Shown here: piece after piece, positions 948 to 42,000 of the stretch
Layout of the letters: each line of letters opens with the position of its first letter
How positions within the stretch are numbered: position 1 is the first letter of the stretch
Assembly (NCBI GenBank): GCA_000004985.1
Contig: GG738851.1
Origin: Naegleria gruberi
Taxonomy: Eukaryota
Direction: 5' to 3' (one strand)
Length of the DNA: 64,000 nt
Program-made: the position numbers and the translations under genes
The notes under the pieces: model-generated
The model's database searches: none
The model's input: the letters and a program-made list of their open reading frames with translations, nothing else
Told to the model about the DNA's origin: nothing

Positions 948-2504
948 ATGGTAAATTCTGCAAGGGAGCATCAAGAAGGTTTATTTTCCAACGACGTTTG
1001 TTTTGAAATATTGTCATTTCTTGATGGTTGGACTATTATTCGAAACTGCGCTTTAATTTCTAAACAGTGGTTTGAAATTATTAGAAATTATTCGAAACTT
1101 GATCTTGAGGTAATGAGTAAACTTTCCACGGAAAGAATCACCATGTTATCCGAAAGTCAATTCTTGAATAGAATTATTGGCTTCAAAGTTGGAAAGTATG
1201 CAGCTTCCGAATTTGTATTATTCGAAAGCTCAAACCTTGAACAATTATGGGAAACTATTGGTTCAATGTCTCAATTGACTAAACTTGATGTTGGCAAGAC
1301 TGGATTACATACTTTTCCCATTTCAATTTTACCTAATTTGGAAAATTTAACAGAATTAAACTTGACATTTTTGGAAATATTTGACCAAGGAGCAAAAATA
1401 ATAAGTCAACGATTGAAATTCATAACCAAACTCAGCGTCGATTATTGTGGAATTGGAATTGAAGGAGTACAAGCAATTGGAAATATGAAACAATTGACTT
1501 TTTTGAATATTAGTGAAAATGAAATGAGAAATGAAGAGATTGAATTGATTGGAACACTTGATCAACTCAAATATTTGAGTATTCGAAATATTACACGTGA
1601 GAATAACAGTGTTGATGATTATCTAGATTTTAATTCTCTGAAAAATCTGAAATTGTTGACCTACCTCAATATTGGTGAAAATAGAATTTCAGATGAGATT
1701 GGTTTACAATTTTTGAGAGAAATGAAACAATTGACTCATCTCAATGTTGCAAACATGGAAATTGGAAGTATTGGGGCTAAAATAATCAGTGAAATGACAC
1801 ATTTAGTTAAACTAAATATTGGACGAAATGATATTGGAAGAACTGGAATTGATTATATAGGTGAAATGAAACAATTGACCTCATTGAATGTTCAAAACTG
1901 CAATTTAATGGAATGTAAATTTTTATGTGGAATGAAACAATTACAATATTTGAATATTAGCGAAAATACAATTAGAAATGAAGGAGTGGATTTAATTTGT
2001 AAAGAACTATCTCAATTGAAATTTCTGAACATTTCTGAAATATTGTCAAGACCCTATCAATTTAGAAATGTACTCCCCATAAAATTGGAGAATTTACCTC
2101 GCCTTAATCAATTAACTGAGCTCGATCTTAGTAGTGATCGAGTGAATGAAGAAAGTTTGATTTTTCTTCTTGAATTGAAATGTTTAACCTCACTGAATGT
2201 CAGAAGAAATAGCATTACTTGTAATTGTGCTAAAATCATTAGTGGAATGAGCCAATTAACCAAACTGAATATCAGTGAGACACAAGTTGATGAATTGGTG
2301 ATGGAATATATTTGTGGAATGAAAGAGTTGCGAGTGTTGTATATGCAAAAGAATTATTTAGAAAATGATTCAGAGGTTGTTGACTTGATTGAGAAAATGG
2401 AAAGTTTGACTGAACTTGATATTAGTGATTGTTATATCAGTATTGAAAATGAAACCAAATTAAGAGAAATTAAGAAATTAAGGAAGCTTGTATTATTTGC
2501 TTAA
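948..2504 (+). CDS. F-box-like / leucine-rich-repeat protein (518 aa)
   Basis: ATG ORF. The N-terminus carries the motif SNDVCFEILSFLDG..NCALISKQWF, shared with the paralogs at 6982 and 8532. The body is about 20 LRR units with recurring MKQLTxLNI(S/G)xNxI. Confidence 0.85.
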   Translation: MVNSAREHQEGLFSNDVCFEILSFLDGWTIIRNCALISKQWFEIIRNYSKLDLEVMSKLSTERITMLSESQFLNRIIGFKVGKYAASEFVLFESSNLEQLWETIGSMSQLTKLDVGKTGLHTFPISILPNLENLTELNLTFLEIFDQGAKIISQRLKFITKLSVDYCGIGIEGVQAIGNMKQLTFLNISENEMRNEEIELIGTLDQLKYLSIRNITRENNSVDDYLDFNSLKNLKLLTYLNIGENRISDEIGLQFLREMKQLTHLNVANMEIGSIGAKIISEMTHLVKLNIGRNDIGRTGIDYIGEMKQLTSLNVQNCNLMECKFLCGMKQLQYLNISENTIRNEGVDLICKELSQLKFLNISEILSRPYQFRNVLPIKLENLPRLNQLTELDLSSDRVNEESLIFLLELKCLTSLNVRRNSITCNCAKIISGMSQLTKLNISETQVDELVMEYICGMKELRVLYMQKNYLENDSEVVDLIEKMESLTELDISDCYISIENETKLREIKKLRKLVLFA

Positions 2505-5806: not shown

Positions 5807-5879
5807 GCCCGTCTAGCTCAGTCGGTAGAGCGCAAGGCTCTTAACCTTGTGGTCGTGGGTTCGACCCCCACGGTGGGCG
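5807..5879 (+). tRNA. tRNA-Lys: tRNA-Lys (anticodon CTT)
   Basis: GCCCGTCTAGCTCAGTCGGTAGAGCGCAAGGCTCTTAACCTTGTGGTCGTGGGTTCGACCCCCACGGTGGGCG, 73 nt. The anticodon loop is CTCTTAA and the B-box is GGTTCGACCCC. Confidence 0.9.
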
Positions 5880-8326: not shown

Positions 8327-8392
8327 AATAAAACGTGAAACTTTATTAATGTCTCTTATATCAATAACAGCCTTGATGACATTTGGTAGGTC

Positions 8393-8432
8393 TCATATCT
8401 TAAGGTCGTGAGTTCGACCCCCATGGTGGGCG
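8393..8432 (+). pseudogene. Orphan tRNA 3'-half fragment, derived from tRNA-Lys(CTT)
   Basis: tcttaaggtcgtgagttcgacccccatggtgggcg matches the 3' half of the tRNA-Lys at 5807 (T-arm plus acceptor 3' strand) with 2 substitutions. No matching 5' half or acceptor strand lies upstream. Confidence 0.5.
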
Positions 8433-20673: not shown

Positions 20674-20747
20674 TACGCCGTAAGGGAGTCGAACCCTTGA
20701 CCTTCAGCGTGTAAAGCTGACGATCTAACCAACTGATCTAACGGCGC
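20674..20747 (-). tRNA. tRNA-Val: tRNA-Val (anticodon TAC)
   Basis: The reverse complement is GCGCCGTTAGATCAGTTGGTTAGATCGTCAGCTTTACACGCTGAAGGTCAAGGGTTCGACTCCCTTACGGCGTA, with the anticodon loop TTTACAC and a full cloverleaf. Confidence 0.85.
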
Positions 20748-20955
20748 TTGATGAAGCAAAAGAAAGAATTAAGGAGCAGTGTTGATAATTACCAGTTTAC
20801 ATGTTGGCCAACTCTGATTTTTAACAATTCAATGCATACCATACTGTACTTTGAGTTTATTGAGAATCCCTTTTAACAAACAAAAATGGAAACAGATTAC
20901 AGTCATTACAACGTTTCCAGGCATCAATTTTGAAAATAATTGATTTTCGATGAAA

Positions 20956-21027
20956 GGGACCATGGTCTAGTGGTATGATTCTCGCTTTGGGTGCGAGAGG
21001 CCGTGGGTTCGATTCCCACTGGTCCCC
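20956..21027 (+). tRNA. tRNA-Pro: tRNA-Pro (anticodon TGG)
   Basis: GGGACCATGGTCTAGTGGTATGATTCTCGCTTTGGGTGCGAGAGGCCGTGGGTTCGATTCCCACTGGTCCCC. It has the GTCT/GATT D-stem typical of tRNA-Pro and the anticodon loop TTTGGGT. Confidence 0.9.
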
Positions 21028-26777: not shown

Positions 26778-28032
26778 TTATAATTGAGTTGGTGGCGAGG
26801 AGGTCTCTGGAGTGAAGAGAGTATTTATAAAGTTATTCCTATTACTGGGAAGAGAATTTGAAAGCAGTTCTTCATTGCTGATGATTGAAGAGGGCGAGTT
26901 GAGTGTTGAAAGATAATAGGGCGATATTGGTGTTGTTGATTGCTTTGATTGATTTGCCAGTTTGAGGACACCACTATTGGTAGAAGATTTTGGTTCCTTG
27001 TAGGTTGAAACTGTGGTTATAGTATCAGTTTCTTGTTGTTTCTTTTTCATTTCGAATGAAATATTGTCAAGTGGTCCAAATGCAAACGTTACCAGAAGGC
27101 ACAATATTCCAATAGATACTTTGTGGATAATAGAGGAAGCAAGAAGGATTTTGGCTGGAGAGAATATAATTTTCAACATTAGTATTATATTTGAAATAAT
27201 ATTCAAGAGTGAAGTTAATAATTGTCCTATTGAAAGTGCAATCAATTTACGACAAGCTGTTTTTCTCTCCTTAGAGATGGGTCTATTTTCTGGCAAGAGT
27301 TTCCTTACCAGAGCCCCTACGCTTACTACATTCAAAATTGTGAAATATAACATTCCTAATGAAACAAATAATCCTAATGTAGAACTGACAGTCTCGGCCT
27401 GTTCACTTATCAAGATGGTCATTGCTGTTTCTGCATATCTTAGCATGAATAGTGTGCATACAGTTACAATAAAGAGCAGCAGTAAAATGTTTAGAATAAT
27501 CACAAGAGAAATACTCGAAATTTTGACAAACTTTCCCCAAGTTTGATTCATTCGATTTTTCCTCATCCAAGATTGTGTCTTATTGAAATAAATATTGTAA
27601 ATTATCTTTGCTATGGTAGCCTGACTGTTCATACACAGAGTTACAGAAATCATCATGCCAGACGTTTCAAAGGCATGAAAAAATGTCCAAAACCAACCCT
27701 GCATTGCAGTGATTAATCCAACCGTGTATGTTATTCCAAAACATTGAAAAACTATTTGATTAAGACAAATAAGTATCAATAGAATGTACAACAATCTCTT
27801 ATTAAATACCATATGCTTCCACTTTGATACAAGTAGAAATCCCATCGGCAATAGAAGAACCATAAAGAAGAGAAGACCTGTAATATGCACTCCGAGAATT
27901 CCATAAATACAATCGTCGATTGATGATGGTTGTATCATTACGGAGCTATTGAATCCATATTGTGATGAATTAAAGAATGAAGAAGATAATGATGATGATG
28001 GCGGTTGTGGCAAATTGATAGAAATCAACATT
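26778..28032 (-). CDS. 7-TM (GPCR-like) membrane protein with a Ser/Thr-rich C-terminal tail
   Basis: The track ORF (26778..28121) starts at TTG, and I take the first in-frame ATG (MLISINLPQ..) at about 28032. There are seven hydrophobic segments. A GTAAGT sits inside the TTG-initiated leader, so an unrecognised 5' exon is possible. Confidence 0.55.
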
Positions 28033-28151
28033 AAATTTCTTTTTAAAATTCTTTTTAATTTGATTTGTACTAATATTGACAAAAAACTTACAGAGATATT
28101 GACTGGTAGTGAAGACCTCAAATTATAAGAAAAATAATATCAAAAAGCACA

Positions 28152-28226
28152 TGCTACCCGCGCGGATCGAACGCACATCTTCTTACTCCCGATAAGCAAG
28201 ACGCCCTACCATTAGACCAGAGCAGC
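28152..28226 (-). tRNA. tRNA-like gene of uncertain identity (possible tRNA-Ile TAT with a 4-nt intron, or a pseudogene)
   Basis: The minus-strand sequence is GCTGCTCTGGTCTAATGGTAGGGCG TCTTG CTTATCGGGAG TAAGA AGAT GTGCGTTCGATCCGCGC GGGTAGCA. The acceptor, D-arm and T-arm are good (B-box GTTCGATCC). The anticodon stem TCTTG/TAAGA encloses 11 nt rather than 7, so either a 4-nt intron or an expanded loop is present. Confidence 0.5.
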
Positions 28227-28262
28227 TAACGAATAATTTCTAAAAATAGGTGGATACTTCAT

Positions 28263-29477
28263 TCAAGCATTAAGATACTCCATCAAAAAGAAAAACCACA
28301 GTGGAACTGTGTTGTGCTCCAATAATTTGGAGCTAATCTCAATATAGGGAACTGTGTGTGTAGCCAATCGATTGTAGAGTCTTTGATTTGTAATCTTGTA
28401 TTCTGAACTGTGATCTGACTGCATACCAACAATGGCCATGATACATGAGGGGACTAACTTTCTAACCTGCTCTATAAAGAAACGAATATTTAGTAAGGTG
28501 GCTTTGCTTGTCAAGTCAAAAGCAATGATGCAATATTTGGAATCATTCAAAAAAGAATTTCTTGGTACGTATATTTGTTCTCCTCCTGCCCAGTCCCATA
28601 ATGCAATGTTCAAGCTTTCAGTCTGATTCAATTGTGTTGACAAATTGAAAACTGAGACAGTACAACCAATGGTTGGTAAATACTTTTGGTGTGGTTTGAA
28701 TTTTGAAACATCTAAGGATTTACAAAATGTTGTCTTGCCAACTGCACCACAGCCCAAAACACAACACTTTGCCAACTTGATATCCTTCCACTTGGAAAAG
28801 GTTTCATCGGTGAGTGAAAATTTTCTAACTCTAAGGAGAGCTGCTTCCTCTTCCACAATCTTCTTACCACTATTCTTCAGGAAGGATTTGTAAACTTGAA
28901 ATTGTTTCATCAAACTCTCGAATAATAATAAATCATCGGGTTGATGAGTCTTATCTGCCACTGTGGATGATGATGAAGAATTATCATCCTCTTTCAAATT
29001 CAAGACAATGTGTTGCCATAGACCCTTTTCACTCCACTCCTTCTCACACTCCTTCAACATGTTCATAACATATTGTTGAAAGCAAAATTCGTAGAATCCA
29101 ACTTTTTCTGCAGCCAAGTCTAGGAAGGATTCTGAAGTTGGTGGCTTATTCTCTTCAAAATCATCATCACCATCCTCTTGATATTTCATCAATGCTAGCC
29201 AATATAAATCACTCTCTGTATAATTAATACTAATATTCAATGATGTCTTATGGTTCTGCAACTTGATGATTTTCCTTTGGATATACTCTTCGACAAGTCT
29301 TCGGGAAAGCTTACAACACTTGGAGATGCCAAAAAACAAATCCAAAGGATTGAGAAACTCCAATATTGAAAACAACCATACATCATTATTAATTCCCATC
29401 AATTCGTGTTGTTCATCCTTTTCCTCGTTGTCGGCTTTTATTCTTAAGCTTGATTCTGTATTGTTCTTGTTATTCAT
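28263..29477 (-). CDS. F-box-like N-terminus fused to a degenerate Ras-superfamily GTPase domain (no NKxD, no switch-II Gln)
   Basis: The track ORF starts at TTG (29615), and the first ATG gives MNNKNNTESS.. at about 29477. The F-box-like segment is DVWLFSILEFLNPLDLFFGISKCCKLSRRL. The GTPase-like segment has the P-loop LGCGAVGKTTF and DxxG as WDWAGGEQ. There is no NKxD, and GMQSD sits in its place. Confidence 0.55.
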   Translation of the reverse strand: MNNKNNTESSLRIKADNEEKDEQHELMGINNDVWLFSILEFLNPLDLFFGISKCCKLSRRLVEEYIQRKIIKLQNHKTSLNISINYTESDLYWLALMKYQEDGDDDFEENKPPTSESFLDLAAEKVGFYEFCFQQYVMNMLKECEKEWSEKGLWQHIVLNLKEDDNSSSSSTVADKTHQPDDLLLFESLMKQFQVYKSFLKNSGKKIVEEEAALLRVRKFSLTDETFSKWKDIKLAKCCVLGCGAVGKTTFCKSLDVSKFKPHQKYLPTIGCTVSVFNLSTQLNQTESLNIALWDWAGGEQIYVPRNSFLNDSKYCIIAFDLTSKATLLNIRFFIEQVRKLVPSCIMAIVGMQSDHSSEYKITNQRLYNRLATHTVPYIEISSKLLEHNTVPLWFFFLMEYLNA

Positions 29478-29768
29478 CCTCCTATTTTTTAATGCAAGCT
29501 TGAAGGTTGTGGATTTTAAGAGGAGGTGTGAGATTGCCAAGTTGTTGTTGGTGTTACATGGAGTGTTGATGAAGAATTCTTTTTTGTTGAATTGTTTCTT
29601 CTTTTTCACCGCCAAACTAACCGTTAGACCGGTTATTAAATATTTTAATTTTTAAAATAAAAAAAATGTAAATGTATCATCACTTCCTAATGGAAGTAAT
29701 ACTTCAATTGTCATTGAGCGGATAGTTTGCTCATACCGCACGACAATGCAAATAACAAAGAAGAAAAA

Positions 29769-31586
29769 ATGTTGATGATCCTATTGGTGGCCTTGATGGT
29801 CATTGTTATTTCTCTGATGATCAACATTGCCTTCAAACTTTATAATAATTATAAGAAGGGTATGTTGTTTTTTCTTTTCAAAATTTAATGATGATTAATT
29901 TTACCAAAATCGATTGGTTACCACAGTTGCTCATATTCCTGGTACTTTTCAATTGACATTTACTCCGTGGAGAATTCCTTTAATTTCACCTGTTTGGTAT
30001 TTGGGAAATGTTGGTACAATTGTTGATGATGTTAGAAAGTATGGTGATGCTGAGAATAAAATCATGAGAATTACTTATCCTGATGCTAATATGGTGCTAG
30101 TTTCTGATCCAGACATGTTGAAAGAGTTCTACCTGACCAAGGGAAATACATTTGACAAGTCGAGTTATGTCTATGACATGTTCAATGTTTATGGAGAGAG
30201 TATCTTGTCAGCTAAAGATACCGAAACATGGAGAAAGCATTTCAAGTAAGTTTTACAATTTTTTACAACAATTTGTGTAATTAACTGATTATAGAGTTGT
30301 TTCACCTGCATTCTCTCCAAAGAATTTGCAATACATGTGTAAGGTTTGCATTGACAGTTCAAAATTATTATTCAACAGATGGGAATCAAAATTGAAAGGA
30401 AAGGAATATTTCATATTGGATTTAGGTGATTTCCCAGATGTTACATTGGATGTTCTTGGAACTAGTGCTTTTGGTATTGATTTTGGCACTTTTTCAGGTG
30501 AACACAACACATCAGAATCAAAATTCAGAAGAGCAATGGAAAAGGTAATTTCACATCAATTCCTAATTAGAAGATTCTTTTTAGAGGTTCCATGGCTTTG
30601 CAAGTTTTTGGAGAGTGTTACTGGAGCAGGAGAAGCAACCAAGTTTTGTGGAGATTATTTGGATAAGGTCATTAAGGATAGAACAAAATTGGTAGAGAGC
30701 TATACTTCATCAACAACTGACGATGAGAAAAAGCATGATGTGTTTACATTGTTAGTGGAGGCTAACATTCTTGACAAGCAATTGACAGATGGAGAATTGA
30801 AGAGTAATGCCTTGATTTTCTCGTAAGTATTATTAATATTTGTATATTTATCAAATACGTATAGAGCTGCTGGACATGAAGTAAGTATCAATTAGATTTC
30901 ACATTCTCATTTTAAATACCATAATAATAGACAACTGCAACCTTACTAAAGTGGACCTTTTATGAAATCTCTAAAAGACCTGAAGTTCAAAACAAAATGT
31001 ATCAAGAAATTGTGGAAAAAATTGGTGATCGTCCAATAGAATACGAAGATTTTGGTAAGATGGACTATGTTTACTCTACCATTCTAGAGGTGTTGAGATT
31101 TAACCCTCCTGTCGTTTGGGTCTCTCGAGAATGTAACAAGAGCACAACTATTGGAAAGTATCACATTCCAAAAGGAACCAGAGTAAATGCTCTCATCAAA
31201 CAAGCTCACAGTAATGAAAAGAATTGGACCAGGCCAGAAGAATTCAATCCAGAACGTCTCTTCAACAATCCAGAGCTCAGAGACAAGGTTCAACAGGATA
31301 TGTCATTCATTGGATTTTCTATGGGAAATCGTAAATGTAAGTGTTTAGATTATCATATTTTTTTACTAATTTAAACAATCCAAACAAATGGACAAATACC
31401 ACATCTCTAGGTATTGGATATAAATTTGCTTTATTAGAAGCAATGATGCTTATTTGCACATTCTTAAAGAGCTATGAATTTAAATTGGAAAATGATGAAA
31501 CTATTGATCCAGTCCTACCAAAGAAAGGTATCGTAAATGTTCCAGGTGATAACATGAGAATCAGAGTCTTCCACAGAACCAAATAA
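29769..31586 (+). CDS. Cytochrome P450, 6 exons (29769..29859, 29927..30245, 30295..30822, 30865..30880, 30931..31336, 31411..31586), 511 aa
   Basis: All five introns have GTAAGT or GTATGT donors and AG acceptors, and the summed exon length of 1536 nt keeps one frame. The product has an N-terminal membrane anchor, the I-helix motif AAGHETT (split by a 16-nt exon), an ExxR region, and the heme loop FSMGNRKC|IGYKFA split by the last intron. Confidence 0.85.
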
Positions 31587-31739
31587 ACCAAATTTAAATT
31601 TCAACAACTATTACAATAATTGTACTCTAAATCCAATCACCAGCCACAATCCACGTAAAACACGTGTTCTTCCATTGTTATTCCAAATTAAAAGCAACCA
31701 TTGTTAACCATTTCTTAATTATTCCAAATATCAAAAAAA

Positions 31740-33623
31740 ATGAAACCCAACTTGTTTCTTCTGGCAATCTACCTGTGTGGTGTCTTGCTATTCGTATCAT
31801 CCATTGATCCGAGTGAAGAAAAGCCAACCATGATCCTATTCCACACTGATCTCAATTCATCCGATTCAAGATTGGTGTTACATGCCAATGGATCAGCCAC
31901 TGTTGAGAGAATATTTTCCATTAACGACATGGAAATGATTAAAGCCTTTGTTGATCAAGATAGGATGCAAATTAGATTGGATGGATTATCATCATGGATT
32001 GATCCGAAGAGTTTTATGGCCACTGTTCAACAAGATACAATCATGATGGACAAGATGAAACAACAAGAAATACAAGTTGATGCTGGTGGAAATCGTCTTA
32101 AGAAGGTTAATACTGATAATAATTATTTAATGTTTAAGGAACAAGTGTATACTAAAGTTCCAGATGATAGAGAAATGAAGAAGAGAATGAAAGAAAAGTT
32201 GGTCGCTGAACAAAAAGTTATTCAAAAGAAGATTGTTTCGTATGAGAATATGAAGAAGCAAATTGTAGAATCCAAGTTTGAATTGGATCAATTTGAGCAA
32301 AAGTTAAAATTGGTTGATGAGTTGATGGAACTAATGGAGAAGAATCAAATTAAAGTGGATGAATTGGAAGAGAAGATTCAAGAAATTGGAAAGACTCAAT
32401 TGTCATCTTCCATGTATTTTGAATTTTCATCAAAAGTTCCAGAATTTGTTAGGGCAGATCCAAAACCATTCATTCTTAAGATTAAGTATATTATCAGCAA
32501 GGGAAGATTCAATTGGACTCCTCAATATTTACTCTCAGTTGATAGTAGTACTCAAACTGGACAATTAATGTTTATGGCGAATGTAGTTCAAAAGACTGGT
32601 GAGAATTTCACAAATGCTCTGGTTGAATTATCGACAGATGAATTAGGACAAGCTCCAAGCATGCCAGAATTCAATCTGTTGACTTTGGATCAGACAGACA
32701 TTTACAAATATCTCCGTAAAACGAACAGTCCACACACATTTGCTGGGTCATCATTTATTAGCCTTACTTCTAAGAAACTTATGAGTGACCAAAGAAACTA
32801 TCAAAATCAATTTGAGGGTGCGAATATTGAATCAAATCAAATGGATCAAAACTCACAGGTTTCCACAGATGTTATCAGATCTACCACTTCTTACATGATT
32901 GCTGAGAGAGCTTCATTTATCACTGATTCAAATGGGTCAGACAAGACAGTTTCATTACTCATTGCCAAGATTAATCTCGAATCAAAGTGGTATCATAAAG
33001 TCATTCCAAAACAATCCTCAAGAGTCTACACAATCATGGCCATTAAGAACAAATCCAAATATCAACTAATCCCAGGTGATGTTAATATTTTCATTAATAA
33101 TGTTCTTTCCACACAATCAAGAATCAAATCAGATGTCTTTCCAGATGATGTCTTCCAATTAGATATCGGTATTGATAGAATGGTCTCTGTGAAACTCAAT
33201 GATCACAATAAGAATGAACAAGAATCAGGTTGGTTCTCCAAAACCAATTCCATCACTGAAAATTCACAAATTACCATTGAAAACAAGAAGGATGTTCCAA
33301 TCAATATTACAGTTATCAATGCTTTACCATTCACAGAAGATTGGCATACAGACGATAAGTTACAAATCATCCTCACTCAACCAAAGACAGACCAAGGAAA
33401 GGATATTGATTTACATGAAATTTTCCTTCCAAAACCAGGTCCAGATGGAAAGGACACATTCTATCCAACTGAATATCAATTCAACACCAAGGTTGGTAAA
33501 AAGGATATGAAATGCAAGATTAAAAAGAGAAATCATGCATTAGAACGAAACTTTTCCATTTCTTCAAAGGAATCAATTGTATTGCCATTGTCTTTTCAAA
33601 TGTGCGTCACTCTTGCAAAATAA
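31740..33623 (+). CDS. Secreted protein with a central coiled-coil (hypothetical), 627 aa
   Basis: The ATG ORF has a signal peptide (MKPNLFLLAIYLCGVLLFVSS) and a K/E-rich heptad-like region (ELDQFEQKLKLVDELMELMEKNQIKVDELEEKIQEI). It has no catalytic motif. Confidence 0.55.
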   Translation: MKPNLFLLAIYLCGVLLFVSSIDPSEEKPTMILFHTDLNSSDSRLVLHANGSATVERIFSINDMEMIKAFVDQDRMQIRLDGLSSWIDPKSFMATVQQDTIMMDKMKQQEIQVDAGGNRLKKVNTDNNYLMFKEQVYTKVPDDREMKKRMKEKLVAEQKVIQKKIVSYENMKKQIVESKFELDQFEQKLKLVDELMELMEKNQIKVDELEEKIQEIGKTQLSSSMYFEFSSKVPEFVRADPKPFILKIKYIISKGRFNWTPQYLLSVDSSTQTGQLMFMANVVQKTGENFTNALVELSTDELGQAPSMPEFNLLTLDQTDIYKYLRKTNSPHTFAGSSFISLTSKKLMSDQRNYQNQFEGANIESNQMDQNSQVSTDVIRSTTSYMIAERASFITDSNGSDKTVSLLIAKINLESKWYHKVIPKQSSRVYTIMAIKNKSKYQLIPGDVNIFINNVLSTQSRIKSDVFPDDVFQLDIGIDRMVSVKLNDHNKNEQESGWFSKTNSITENSQITIENKKDVPINITVINALPFTEDWHTDDKLQIILTQPKTDQGKDIDLHEIFLPKPGPDGKDTFYPTEYQFNTKVGKKDMKCKIKKRNHALERNFSISSKESIVLPLSFQMCVTLAK

Positions 33624-39078: not shown

Positions 39079-42000
39079 ATGATATCAACTCGAAATTTCA
39101 TCTCTGTCAATTGTGGTAAGATGATTACTATCAGCTGCAGCAACCAATGTTTATCGTATGTCCTCATGTTGAGCATGCTTCTTTCCATACTTATTGTTTC
39201 AACAACTGTGGCTCAGGAAAGCTTTGTTTCAACTATTGCAGGTGGAGGTGTATGTGATGGTTATTTAGCAACTCAAGCCTCATTGGCATATCCTGGATCA
39301 CCAACTATTGGTCCAGATGGTTCAATTTATATAGCAGATAGTTCAAATCACAGAGTTCGTCAAGTTTATCCGAATGGTACCATTACTACCATTGCAGGAA
39401 CTGGAATTTCAGGTTATAATGGTGATGTCATTCCAGCAACGAGAGCTCAATTGAAAAATCCTGTATCAGTTGCTGTTAATTCGATTGGAGAAGTTTTCAT
39501 AAGTGATAATGGAAACAATAGAATTAGAAAAGTATTGACTAATGGTACAATTATTACTTTTGCAGGAAGTGGACAGACAACTTTTTCAGGAGATTATGGA
39601 TTGGCCACCAATGCAGGAATTAACTATCCCTATGGTATTGCACTCACTAGTATTGAAGAATTGATTATTTCCGATGTAAATCATAATAGAATTCGTAAAG
39701 TTTTAACCAATGGAACCATCTATACCATTGCAGGAAACAATATTCAAGGTTACAATGGAGATAACAAGTTGGCAACAAGTGCTTCCTTGTTTCTGTCCTT
39801 TGGTGTTAGTGTTGATGCAAATGATAATGTCTACATTGCGGACACTGACAATGATAGAATTCGTAAAGTTTTAACCAATGGAACCATCTATACCATTGCA
39901 GGTATTGGAAATAGTGGATTTTCTGGGGATGGAGGTTTGGCAACTGCAGCCAAGATTAGCTCTCCTGAAGGCGTTTCAGTTTCTCCTGAAGGCGAAGTTT
40001 ATTTTGCAGGTTTGTAATTCTTTCTATTCGAAACTTTAACTTTACAAGATACAAGTAATAACAGAATTCGAAAAATTTTGACAAATGGTACAATTTTAAC
40101 TGTTGCAGGAACTAGTTATGGATTCTTAGATAACACAACTGCCAGTCTTGCACTGCTAGGAAATCCTGGACAAATGTTCATTGACAAGAATAGTGGAGAT
40201 GTGTATTTTGCTGATAAAGGAAGTCACAGAATTAGAAAGATTTCTAATGGATTTATTACTTCTGTTGCTGGTTCAGGTTCTGCAACTTTTTGTGGCGAAA
40301 ACATTGCTTCAAGTGCATGTGCTTTAGCTAAACCAAAAGGTGCAGTCATTGATTCATTAGGAAATATTTATATTGCTGGTAAGTTTTATTATAACATAAT
40401 CATACGAATCCTCTTCTTTGCAATATATAGATACAAACAATAATCGTGTGAGAAAGATATCATATTTGGATGGTACCATTAACACCATTGCTGGAACAGG
40501 AAGCAATGGTTATAATGGAGATGGTATCTTGGCAACAAGTGCACAACTTAACAGACCTTCAAGTGTTGCTATGGATTCGGTTGGTAATGTGTTTGTTGCA
40601 GGTATGTACTTCTTTCTATTGGAAACTTTAAATTTCTACAAGATACAAGTAATAACAGAATTCGAAAAATTTTGACAAATGGTACAATTGTAACTGTTGC
40701 AGGTGTTGGATCTAGTGGTTTTAATGGTGATATTTTGGCAACAGATGCAAAATTGAGCAACCCTGTTTCAGTCACTATTGATTCGAATGATAATGTTTAC
40801 ATTGCCGATACTTACAATCATAGAATTCGAAAGATTTTACAGAATGGAAATCTAACAACAATTGTTGGATTAGGATCGAGTGGTTTTAATGGTGATTATC
40901 TATTATCAAACGGAACCAAATTAAACTATCCACAATCCATAGCATTTGATTCGAATGGTAACATGTATATTGCAGGTAAGTTGTTTTTTGTAAACAACTA
41001 ATCAAGTGAAAAATTGATTCCACTAATGACACAGATATGAACAATAATCGAATTAGAAAAATGTTAACTAATGGAACTATTATCACAGTAGCAGGAACAG
41101 GCGTTTCAGGTTATAACGGAGATGGAATATTGGCAACTGTTGCTCAACTCAAATATCCACAAGGAATTGCAATTGAAAATGATGAATTGATTATTGCTGA
41201 TTCTTCAAATCATAGAATTCGTAAAGTATTAACAAATGGAACAATTATCACCCTTGTAGGAACAGGTACTTTGGGATACAGTGGAGATGGTCTGGTTGGA
41301 GCCAATTCACAAATTAATAACCCATCAGGAGTCGTTGTAAAACAAAATGGTGAACTAATTGTTATTGATTCGGATAATAGTAGACTCAGATTGATTTCCA
41401 CACCTCGTCAATGTAATGGAACATTGGCAAGTGATTCAAATGTGTGTAGTGGTGTTGGTATTTGTAGTGCACCTGAGACATGTGATTGTGGAAACTTGTT
41501 TGGTGGTCAATTCTGTGAATATTCCAAATGTTTCGGTATTCTTTCGAATTCATCAAGTGTTTGTTCATCACATGGAATGTGTATTTCCCCAAATACTTGT
41601 TCTTGTAATTCTGGTTTTTATGGATTGAATTGTCAAGTTATGAAATGTTTTGGAATTGAAAGTAATGACACTTTAGTTTGTTCTGGAAATGGAAAGTGTG
41701 TTTCTATTGATTCATGCCAATGTTCAAATGGTTGGTCAGGTTCAGATTGTTCAATTCTTTCATGTTTTAATATCATGGCCAATGATACTGCTCAAGTTTG
41801 CAGTGGACATGGTAATTGCTCAAGTGTGGATAAATGTGATTGTGAATTTGGATGGTCAGGATTGAATTGTTCTGTAAACTCCACAATTCCAGAAACCAGC
41901 AACTCCACAATTCCTAATAACGACACCTCAATCAATACCAATGGTACTATTTTAAACAATTCTTCCACTACTAATGCCACTAGTTCAAATACTACCATCC

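What the first reader, a model, noticed from the sequence alone, without database searches (positions are those of the whole stretch)
28152..28226. tRNA-like gene with an 11-nt segment in place of the anticodon loop
The acceptor, D and T arms are canonical (B-box GTTCGATCC) and the anticodon stem TCTTG/TAAGA pairs 5/5, but 11 nt (CTTATCGGGAG) lie between the stem strands. This fits tRNA-Ile(TAT), which carries an intron in eukaryotes, with an unusually short 4-nt intron. It equally fits a non-functional variant. Either would be notable.
Basis: seen in the sequence. Interest (0 to 1): 0.5.

Follow-up and report, generated by a model that had tools for sequence, protein, structure and literature searches.

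The report
Odd tRNA gene, four extra loop bases
A Naegleria gruberi nuclear tRNA gene is intact except for four extra bases in its anticodon loop; it is slightly more likely a damaged spare copy of the AUA-reading isoleucine tRNA than a record-short intron, and the available data cannot settle which.

Summary
On the minus strand at 28152-28226 there is a 75-nt cloverleaf. It has a 7-bp acceptor stem, a 4-bp D stem, a 5-bp anticodon stem (TCTTG/TAAGA), a 5-bp T stem, the B box GTTCGATCC, discriminator A and a T5 terminator. Its anticodon loop is 11 nt (CTTATCGGGAG) instead of 7.

The window is Naegleria gruberi nuclear DNA. Reports give this genome about 870-920 tRNA genes, 41 of them predicted pseudogenes.

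Ile(UAU) is the only single-event reading that gives a canonical loop, but only if CGGG is removed between positions 36 and 37. Cutting at the canonical 37/38 site leaves C37. The loop is predicted to zip into an 8-bp hairpin, not a splice-competent bulge. Four nt is below the 6-133 nt range reported for nuclear tRNA introns.

Rfam scores the gene 39.4 bits, against 57-70 for its six neighbours. It also lacks the AA leader they share.

I could not reach other N. gruberi tRNA-Ile(UAU) copies or orthologues, so the decisive comparison is missing.

My estimates are: aberrant non-decoding copy about 0.5, real ultrashort intron about 0.27, other explanations for the rest. Interest is modest.

The parts
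28152..28226 (-). Complete 75-nt tRNA-like gene (tRNA position 1 = 28226, discriminator A73 = 28152); no encoded CCA
   Evidence: Sequence read. ARAGORN reports it. Rfam RF00005 scores 39.4 bits.
28220..28226 (-). Acceptor stem 5' strand GCTGCTC; pairs with GGGTAGC at 28153-28159 (7 bp, two of them G-U)
   Evidence: sequence; ARAGORN drawing.
28203..28217 (-). D arm GTCT-AATGGTA-GGGC (the A-box region TGGTCTAATGG begins at 28219)
   Evidence: G18 G19 and A14 are present.
28197..28201 (-). Anticodon stem 5' strand TCTTG
   Evidence: pairs 5/5 with TAAGA at 28181-28185.
28186..28196 (-). 11-nt anticodon loop CTTATCGGGAG. C32 U33 and then T-A-T give the UAU reading. The 4 excess nt are either CGGG (28188-28191) or GGGA (28187-28190).
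   Evidence: One search gives the sequence. The Rfam alignment puts 7 residues against 3 model positions. enumerates all deletions.
28181..28185 (-). Anticodon stem 3' strand TAAGA
28160..28176 (-). T arm GTGCG-TTCGATC-CGCGC, including the B box GTTCGATCC at 28164-28172
28142..28146 (-). T5 run, an RNA polymerase III terminator-type signal, starting 6 nt after the discriminator
   Evidence: All seven tRNA genes of the window have such a run within a few nt.
28227..28232 (-). 5' leader ...TCGTTA. It lacks the AA at -2/-1 shared by the six ordinary tRNA genes of the window.

Best explanation
This is an aberrant, non-decoding member of the large nuclear tRNA gene family of Naegleria gruberi. Most likely it was once a tRNA-Ile(UAU) gene. 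Its anticodon loop now carries four surplus nucleotides. These came either from a small insertion (CGGG between positions 36 and 37) or from an imprecise deletion that removed A37 and most of an ancestral intron, leaving its 3' end (C)GGGA.

Shown: the internal A and B boxes and the T5 terminator are intact. The four stems and the tertiary-contact nucleotides are intact.

Inferred: the gene is probably still bound by TFIIIC and transcribed by RNA polymerase III, and its ends could be trimmed by RNase P and RNase Z. The anticodon arm of the transcript closes into an 8-bp hairpin with a 5-nt loop (a prediction). That fold offers neither a 7-nt anticodon loop to the ribosome nor bulged splice sites to the splicing endonuclease. 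The product would therefore be a dead-end RNA that is degraded, and AUA codons would be read by other, normal tRNA-Ile(UAU) genes elsewhere in the genome. The existence of those normal genes is also inferred; I have not seen them.
For: The anticodon loop is 11 nt in an otherwise perfect cloverleaf. The Rfam score is 39.4 bits, against 57.1-69.9 for the six other tRNA genes of the window. A cut at the canonical 37/38 position would leave C37, and only a non-canonical 36/37 excision restores CUUAUAG. The minimum-free-energy and centroid folds make a continuous 8-bp anticodon hairpin; the splice-competent fold (C32:G-3 pair plus 3-nt bulge) is 8.9 kcal/mol worse. Four nt is below the 6-133 nt range reported for canonical nuclear tRNA introns, and short insertions found in one of many synonymous eukaryotic tRNA genes are generally taken as pseudogenes (PMC4090602). 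N. gruberi has 924 tDNAs, 41 of them predicted pseudogenes (PMC2888827, supplementary file 2), so young damaged copies are expected. A truncated tRNA-Lys copy lies in the same window. All six normal genes have AA at -2/-1, and three of them (Ile, Lys, Pro) carry an exact ATGAA within 12 nt upstream, with a related GATGTGAAA at Asp; this gene has TCGTTA. ARAGORN cannot settle on an anticodon: it gives Pro-GGG, or Pro-CGG with a 2-nt 'intron'.
Against: Everything outside the loop is flawless, so the damage would have to be very recent, or the gene is under selection. The excess sits exactly where introns sit, in a tRNA species (UAU anticodon) that is among the most intron-prone in eukaryotes (PMC12168002); that is an unlikely coincidence for a random indel. 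A C32:G(-3) pair with a GA|G bulge, the signature of a eukaryotic 3' splice site, can be drawn. Very short tRNA introns (3 nt) are spliced in the Guillardia nucleomorph (PMC4090602).
Confidence: 0.5

Rival explanations
1. It is a functional tRNA-Ile(UAU) gene with an ultrashort 4-nt intervening sequence. The pre-tRNA is transcribed by RNA polymerase III. The four nucleotides are then excised and the halves are ligated. Excision would remove either CGGG at 36/37, giving the loop CUUAUAG, or GGGA at 37/38, giving CUUAUCG. The mature tRNA reads AUA. As in yeast, the intervening sequence might exist to direct modification of U34 and U36 before splicing.
For: Removal of CGGG gives the only canonical loop obtainable by a single event (U33, UAU, A37). 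The acceptor end (G1-C72, C2-G71, U3-A70, A73) is shared with the window's tRNA-Ile(AAU) and with none of the other five tRNAs. AUA codons are used at 9.5 per 1000 in window ORFs, so the cell needs this tRNA. tI(UAU) is the second most intron-rich tRNA (PMC12168002). C32 can pair with the intron nucleotide at -3, leaving a 3-nt bulge GA|G. The rest of the gene and the terminator are intact. There are precedents: 3-nt introns shown to be spliced in the Guillardia nucleomorph (PMC4090602), and an 11-nt, edited tRNA-Tyr intron in Trypanosoma brucei, which like Naegleria belongs to Discoba (PMC4931112).
Against: Four nt is shorter than any canonical nuclear intron reported (6-133 nt; PMC4090602). 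It is too short for a bulge-helix-bulge motif. Canonical ruler-defined sites yield C37, whereas tRNAs that read ANN codons carry A37 (my own knowledge). The splice-competent fold is 8.9 kcal/mol less stable than the closed hairpin. Either product has a Watson-Crick C32-G38 combination, which is rare in tRNAs (my own knowledge). The leader lacks the motif of the neighbouring genes.
Confidence: 0.27
2. It is an unspliced tRNA-like RNA or DNA element with a role outside decoding. For example, it could be a TFIIIC/Pol III-bound element between two closely packed genes. It could also be a tRNA-like 3'-end processing signal for the Rab-like gene, whose stop codon lies 37 bp upstream on the same strand. 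In either case the anticodon arm is simply a closed hairpin.
For: The gene lies in the gap between the ORFs 28263-29615 and 26778-28121, both on the same strand as the tRNA. The A and B boxes and the terminator are intact while the decoding loop is not.
Against: There is no positive evidence. Ordinary tRNA genes of this window sit in equally tight gaps. I have no conservation data.
Confidence: 0.1
3. It is a tRNA of another identity, read in a different register. One option is Pro(CGG) or Pro(GGG), as ARAGORN reports. Another is Arg(UCG), if the central triplet of the 11-nt loop is taken with a 7-bp stem. A third is a tRNA that decodes with an expanded loop.
For: ARAGORN gives Pro-GGG and Pro-CGG with a 2-nt intron. 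A fold with a 7-bp stem and the 7-nt loop UAUCGGG is energetically good (-23.9 kcal/mol).
Against: The two ARAGORN calls disagree and need either a 3-bp D stem or a shifted anticodon stem. The body is unrelated to the window's own tRNA-Pro(UGG), which ends in C73. The 7-nt loop UAUCGGG has A, not U, at position 33. Known natural expanded loops have 8 nt, not 9-11 (PMC3113583 and frameshift suppressors).
Confidence: 0.06
4. It is a sequencing or assembly artefact: the four extra bases are not in the real genome.
For: None directly. Only one assembly could be read at this position.
Against: A clean 4-nt non-repetitive insertion is not a typical base-calling error (my own knowledge). The neighbouring 2.4 kb agree at 98.45% with an independent environmental contig, so the region is not misassembled on a large scale.
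Confidence: 0.03

Closest known systems
Eukaryotic nuclear tRNA-Ile(UAU) genes with a canonical 37/38 intron (yeast tI(UAU), human tRNA-Ile-TAT)
   Same: C32-U33-UAU anticodon context, class I body, discriminator A73, extra nucleotides 3' of the anticodon, and a possible C32:G(-3) anticodon-intron pair. The intron class is among the most conserved (PMC12168002, PMC4090602).
   Different: The excess is 4 nt, whereas reported introns are 6-133 nt. The nucleotide after the anticodon is C, not A37, so the canonical junction does not give a usable loop. No bulged splice sites appear in the predicted fold.
tRNA pseudogenes, or aberrant copies within multi-copy eukaryotic tRNA families
   Same: It is a single odd gene in a genome with about 900 tDNAs and 41 predicted pseudogenes (PMC2888827 supplement). 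Its covariance score is lower than its neighbours'. Short insertions in one of many synonymous genes are conventionally read this way (PMC4090602).
   Different: There is no other damage at all: all stems, tertiary nucleotides, promoter boxes and the terminator are intact. The lesion lies exactly at the intron position.
Ultrashort or non-canonical tRNA introns of the Guillardia theta nucleomorph and of red algae
   Same: These are very short intervening sequences: 3-24 nt (PMC4090602), or 1-24 bp (PMC3017389). Their excision was confirmed by RT-PCR, and the mechanism for the shortest ones is unknown.
   Different: Those occur in a reduced endosymbiont nucleus or in red algae, often in D or T arms and often with BHB motifs. 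The present gene is in a free-living heterolobosean nuclear genome, the excess is in the anticodon loop, and no BHB is possible.
Trypanosoma brucei tRNA-Tyr with an 11-nt edited intron
   Same: It is from a member of Discoba, it has a short intron, and its splicing depends on non-canonical steps (PMC4931112).
   Different: That intron is 11 nt, lies at the canonical position, has been shown experimentally to be spliced, and is in a different tRNA.
Natural tRNAs with an enlarged anticodon loop (yeast mitochondrial tRNA-Thr1, SufB2-type frameshift suppressors)
   Same: The anticodon loop is larger than 7 nt in an otherwise normal tRNA (PMC3113583).
   Different: Those have one extra nucleotide (8-nt loops) and decode. 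Here there are four extra, and the loop is predicted to close into a helix.

Membership tests
tRNA (Rfam RF00005, class I cloverleaf) | Score at or above the family gathering threshold (29 bits) | tested here: met
   39.4 bits, E = 3.7e-07 in the 281-nt scan. Not reported in the two whole-window scans, which I attribute to filter loss.
tRNA (Rfam RF00005, class I cloverleaf) | 7-bp acceptor, 4-bp D, 5-bp anticodon and 5-bp T stems, with the conserved U8, A14, G18 G19, GTTCRA, C61 | tested here: met
   All pairs form and all these nucleotides are present.
tRNA (Rfam RF00005, class I cloverleaf) | 7-nt anticodon loop with U33 and a purine at position 37 | tested here: not met
   The loop is 11 nt, CTTATCGGGAG; the nucleotide after the UAU triplet is C.
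Intron-containing nuclear tRNA gene (substrate of Sen/TSEN) | Intron inserted between positions 37 and 38, leaving a functional 7-nt loop after excision | tested here: not met
   Excision at 37/38 gives CUUAUCG with C37. Only excision at 36/37 gives CUUAUAG.
Intron-containing nuclear tRNA gene (substrate of Sen/TSEN) | Anticodon-intron (A-I) pair between position 32 and intron position -3, with the 3' splice site in a 3-nt bulge | tested here: inconclusive
   C32:G(-3) with a GA|G bulge can be drawn. That fold is -17.0 kcal/mol against -25.9 for the closed 8-bp hairpin, which is also the MFE and centroid fold.
Intron-containing nuclear tRNA gene (substrate of Sen/TSEN) | Intron length within the documented range (6-133 nt) | tested here: not met
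   The excess is 4 nt; the range is from PMC4090602.
Intron-containing nuclear tRNA gene (substrate of Sen/TSEN) | The intron is present in all or most gene copies of the isodecoder, and a spliced mature RNA exists | not testable with these tools
   The N. gruberi genome is not on record. Scans of the metagenome, prokaryotic-genome and viral collections gave only chance hits or none. No RNA data are available.
tRNA pseudogene / aberrant copy | Disruption of an element required for decoding, with a lower model score than bona fide genes of the same genome | tested here: met
   11-nt loop; 39.4 bits against 57.1-69.9 bits for the six neighbours.
tRNA pseudogene / aberrant copy | Intact synonymous copies exist elsewhere in the genome | not testable with these tools
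   Only this 64-kb window of N. gruberi could be read, and it holds no other UAU-anticodon gene.
BHB-dependent non-canonical tRNA introns (archaea, red algae, nucleomorphs) | Bulge-helix-bulge motif (two 3-nt bulges around a 4-bp helix) at the exon-intron junctions | tested here: not met
   A 4-nt insert cannot supply the 4-nt helix strand plus the bulge nucleotides. No such fold appears among those evaluated.
Expanded-anticodon-loop decoding tRNAs | 8-nt anticodon loop (one extra nucleotide) that remains open | tested here: not met
   The loop is 11 nt and is predicted to pair internally.

The most novel reading that the evidence does not exclude
All tRNA-Ile(UAU) genes of Naegleria gruberi carry a 4-nt intervening sequence. 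This would be shorter than any canonical nuclear tRNA intron on record. It would be removed at a junction (36/37) that the ruler mechanism of the eukaryotic splicing endonuclease should not use, implying a new way of excising mini-introns in a free-living eukaryote. Standard annotation pipelines would be systematically missing or mislabelling this essential tRNA.
Probability: 0.25. Interest if true: 0.65.

Novelty: new member of a known kind. Interest (0 to 1): 0.3.

Why it matters
If this is a damaged copy, it is one more tRNA pseudogene in a genome that has hundreds of tRNA genes. Its only practical lesson is that filtered covariance-model scans lose such genes and that ARAGORN mislabels them as tRNA-Pro.

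If the four bases are a genuine intron, it would be the shortest nuclear tRNA intron known. It would also lie at a junction that the current ruler model of the splicing endonuclease does not predict. That would be a useful natural test case for how splice sites are chosen, and a warning that mini-introns below the detection limits of the annotation tools may be hidden in other protist genomes.

Tried and rejected
1. Fetching the rest of the N. gruberi genome. The two flanking proteins are 100% identical to NCBI N. gruberi entries, but neither is on record in the contig index.

2. Synteny in another Naegleria species. The neighbouring P450 has a 36%-identical homologue in N. lovaniensis. Its 21-kb locus L002 has no tRNA, no detectable DNA similarity to the window and different neighbouring genes.

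3. A second strain. The ENA metagenome contig L003 matches window 29586-32021 at 98.45% but stops 1.36 kb short of the tRNA. Eight start variants of the adjacent 447-aa ORF are not in the protein collection.

4. Pattern scans. A 19-mer spanning the D stem to the anticodon, searched in metagenome contigs, gave one chance bacterial hit that is not a tRNA. Two 25-mers searched in viral contigs gave nothing. A 20-mer from the T arm and acceptor, searched in prokaryotic genomes, gave four chance hits with no tRNA.

5. Literature. I found no paper describing Naegleria nuclear tRNA introns or anticodon-level gene tables. The genome paper is not held. Supplements gave only totals: 872 genes with 45 Ile, and 924 genes with 41 pseudogenes.

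6. The ARAGORN identities Pro-GGG and Pro-CGG are rejected. They disagree with each other, they need distorted stems, and they do not fit the body or the discriminator.

7. Readings with a 9-nt or 7-nt loop on a lengthened stem are rejected as decoding forms, because position 33 is then not U.

8. A transposon footprint or tandem duplication as the source of the four bases is not supported. There is no duplication and no TTAA or TA footprint in CTTATCGGGAG (direct reading).

Full report
**What is there**

Reading the minus strand of 28100-28290 (plus strand) gives a 75-nt sequence at 28226->28152:

GCTGCTC TG GTCT AATGGTA GGGC G TCTTG CTTATCGGGAG TAAGA AGAT GTGCG TTCGATC CGCGC GGGTAGC A

- Every stem of a class I tRNA pairs: 7, 4, 5 and 5 bp.
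- The nucleotides used for tertiary contacts are present: U8, A14, A15/U48, G18 G19, G26/A44, G53 T54 T55 C56, A58, C61.
- There is no encoded CCA.
- A T5 run starts 6 nt after the discriminator, at 28142-28146.
- The only abnormal feature is that 11 nt, not 7, separate the two strands of the anticodon stem.

ARAGORN finds a tRNA at exactly these coordinates. The Rfam tRNA model gives 39.4 bits (gathering score 29, E = 3.7e-07) in a 281-nt scan and places the surplus in the 3' part of the anticodon loop.

Two caveats apply. Both whole-window Rfam scans, at the gathering threshold and at the permissive E-value threshold, list the six ordinary tRNAs of the window (57.1-69.9 bits) but not this one. 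A routine annotation run would miss it. Folding energy alone is also unremarkable (z = -1.24).

**Where it comes from**

The ORFs on either side are 100% identical to NCBI proteins of Naegleria gruberi. They are a Rab-family GTPase and NAEGRDRAFT_78456, both on a 693,645-bp contig. The window has 30-37% G+C, is gene dense and holds seven tRNA genes.

Published counts for this genome are:
- 924 tDNAs, of which 41 are predicted pseudogenes (PMC2888827, supplementary file 2).
- 872 genes, of which 45 are for Ile (PMC11761746, Table S8).

The gene sits between two ORFs of its own strand. It lies 37 bp after the stop codon of the Rab-like ORF (28263-29615) and about 30 bp before the longest reading of the next ORF (26778-28121).

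**Which tRNA**

I enumerated every deletion of 1-4 nt from the loop. Among single 4-nt deletions, only one gives a loop with U33, a purine at 37 and an anticodon that fits a short-variable-arm tRNA: CTTAT|CGGG|AG -> CUUAUAG, which is Ile(UAU).

The other deletions are less satisfactory:
- Some give a loop with no U33.
- Some give Pro anticodons with A37, on a body unlike the window's own tRNA-Pro(UGG), which ends in C73.
- One gives Leu(UAG) without a long variable arm.

Other evidence bears on the Ile reading:
- The first three acceptor pairs and A73 are shared with the window's tRNA-Ile(AAU) and with none of the other five tRNAs. This is weak support for Ile identity.
- AUA codons are used at 9.5 per 1000 in 16 window ORFs, so the organism needs a UAU-anticodon tRNA.
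- ARAGORN's own labels are unstable. It gives Pro-GGG without intron search and Pro-CGG with a 2-nt 'intron' when introns are allowed. Both rest on distorted stems, and I reject them.

**Is the surplus an intron?**

Points in favour:
- tI(UAU) is, after tY(GUA), the most intron-prone tRNA of eukaryotes (PMC12168002).
- The surplus lies on the 3' side of the anticodon.
- With a 37/38 junction (CUUAUC|GGGA|G), C32 can pair with the intron nucleotide at -3 and leave a GA|G bulge. This is the arrangement known as the A-I pair, which the eukaryotic endonuclease needs at the 3' site (PMC10485636).
- Very short introns (3 nt) are known to be removed in the Guillardia nucleomorph (PMC4090602; PMC3017389).
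- Trypanosoma brucei, also a member of Discoba, has an 11-nt tRNA-Tyr intron whose splicing needs unusual editing (PMC4931112).

Points against:
- The canonical junction leaves C at position 37. tRNAs reading ANN codons have A37 (my own knowledge). A proper loop needs a 36/37 junction, which the ruler mechanism (PMC4090602, PMC10485636) does not predict.
- Four nt is below the 6-133 nt range reported for canonical nuclear introns (PMC4090602). It is also too short to build a bulge-helix-bulge motif.
- The 11 nt are self-complementary: C-G, U-A and U-G extend the stem. Both the minimum-free-energy and the centroid structures have a continuous 8-bp anticodon hairpin with a 5-nt loop. That fold is -25.9 kcal/mol for the cloverleaf, against -17.0 for the A-I/bulge fold.
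- Either spliced product would carry a Watson-Crick C32-G38 pair, which is unusual in tRNAs (my own knowledge).
- The six ordinary tRNA genes all have AA at -2/-1, and Ile, Lys and Pro carry an exact ATGAA within 12 nt upstream (Asp has the related GATGTGAAA). This gene has TCGTTA. With only six genes for comparison, this is weak.

**Attempts to get the decisive comparison**

The test that would settle the matter is whether other tRNA-Ile(UAU) genes of N. gruberi and its relatives have the same loop. I could not reach them.
- The N. gruberi genome is not in the contig index.
- The N. lovaniensis homologue of the neighbouring P450 lies in a non-syntenic 21-kb locus without any tRNA.
- An environmental contig from a second N. 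gruberi-like strain (98.45% identical over window 29586-32021) ends 1.36 kb short of the gene. The adjacent ORF could not be found in the protein collection under any of eight start variants.
- Pattern scans of the metagenome, viral and prokaryotic collections gave only chance, non-tRNA hits or nothing.
- No paper or held supplement gives anticodon-level or intron data for Naegleria.

**Weighing the explanations**

A random small indel would rarely land at the intron position of an intron-prone tRNA while leaving everything else perfect. That keeps the intron reading alive. It also suggests a middle path: an ancestral intron-containing Ile(UAU) gene that lost A37 and most of its intron in one imprecise deletion, leaving (C)GGGA.

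On the other side, the splice-site geometry, the length, C37, the closed hairpin and the atypical leader all point to a copy that can no longer mature. A genome with about 900 tDNAs, 41 predicted pseudogenes and a truncated tRNA-Lys 20 kb away offers ample opportunity for such copies.

My estimates are:
- Aberrant non-decoding copy: about 0.5.
- Genuine mini-intron: about 0.27.
- tRNA-like element with a non-decoding role: about 0.1.
- Other identity: about 0.06.
- Artefact: about 0.03.

**Mechanism for the best explanation, with status of each step**

Shown:
- The A and B boxes and the T5 terminator are intact.
- The cloverleaf outside the anticodon loop is intact.

Inferred:
- The gene is still a TFIIIC/Pol III unit, and its transcript can be end-processed.
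- The anticodon arm closes into an 8-bp hairpin (a prediction, not a measurement).
- The RNA is neither spliced nor usable on the ribosome and is turned over.
- AUA is read by other, normal copies, which have not been seen.

**Novelty and interest**

On the favoured reading this is one more member of a known kind, an aberrant tRNA gene copy, and the interest is low to modest. The reading that the evidence does not exclude is a 4-nt nuclear tRNA intron excised at a non-canonical junction. That would be new for nuclear genomes and would bear on how the splicing endonuclease chooses its sites. It can be tested in an afternoon with the full genome and a tRNA-seq library. Overall interest: 0.3.

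Noticed in passing
window 8388-8432 (+): This is a truncated tRNA-Lys(CUU)-like fragment. The last 29 nt (8404-8432) match the 3' end of the intact tRNA-Lys gene at 5807-5879 at 27 of 29 positions and are followed by a T run. There is no 5' half, so it looks like a tRNA pseudogene remnant.
   Followed up: partly
window 28152-28226 (-): The Rfam tRNA model scores this gene above the gathering threshold (39.4 bits) in a 281-nt scan. Both whole-window scans (gathering and permissive E-value) omit it, so filtered covariance-model pipelines lose tRNA genes that carry small loop insertions.
   Followed up: yes
window: 5' leaders of the tRNA genes at 2607, 5807, 9955, 20747(-), 20956, 52967(-): All six ordinary tRNA genes have AA at positions -2/-1. 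Ile, Lys and Pro carry an exact ATGAA within 12 nt upstream, and Asp has the related GATGTGAAA. This may be a leader or initiation element of N. gruberi Pol III genes. The odd gene lacks it.
   Followed up: partly
window 1-64000; 20674-21027: There are seven tRNA genes in 64 kb, about five times the genome average implied by 924 tDNAs in 41 Mb. They include a divergent tRNA-Val/tRNA-Pro pair only 208 bp apart.
   Followed up: no
L003 = window 29586-32021: An ENA metagenome contig (ERZ929261, k127_126741, 2449 bp) is 98.45% identical to the window, with 21 mismatches and 6 gaps. A close relative or second strain of N. gruberi is therefore present in an environmental data set.
   Followed up: partly
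window 29914-31374 (+); L002: The window holds a multi-exon cytochrome P450 gene (three or more exon ORFs). Its best non-self homologue is an N. lovaniensis P450 at only 36% identity, in a non-syntenic locus. That locus also holds a piggyBac-type transposase (DDE_Tnp_1_7), an RNase H gene and TERT.
   Followed up: partly
window 28263-29615 (-): The open reading frame around the Rab-family GTPase is 450 codons. The NCBI protein is 308 aa and covers 68% of the ORF. The N-terminal extension may be untranslated or unannotated.
   Followed up: no
window 1109-1230 (-), 40669-40799 (+), 28593-28659 (+): There are weak sub-threshold Rfam hits: rliA at 32.4 bits (E = 0.011), MIR161, and SNORD63. All are far below their gathering scores and are most likely chance matches.
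   Followed up: no
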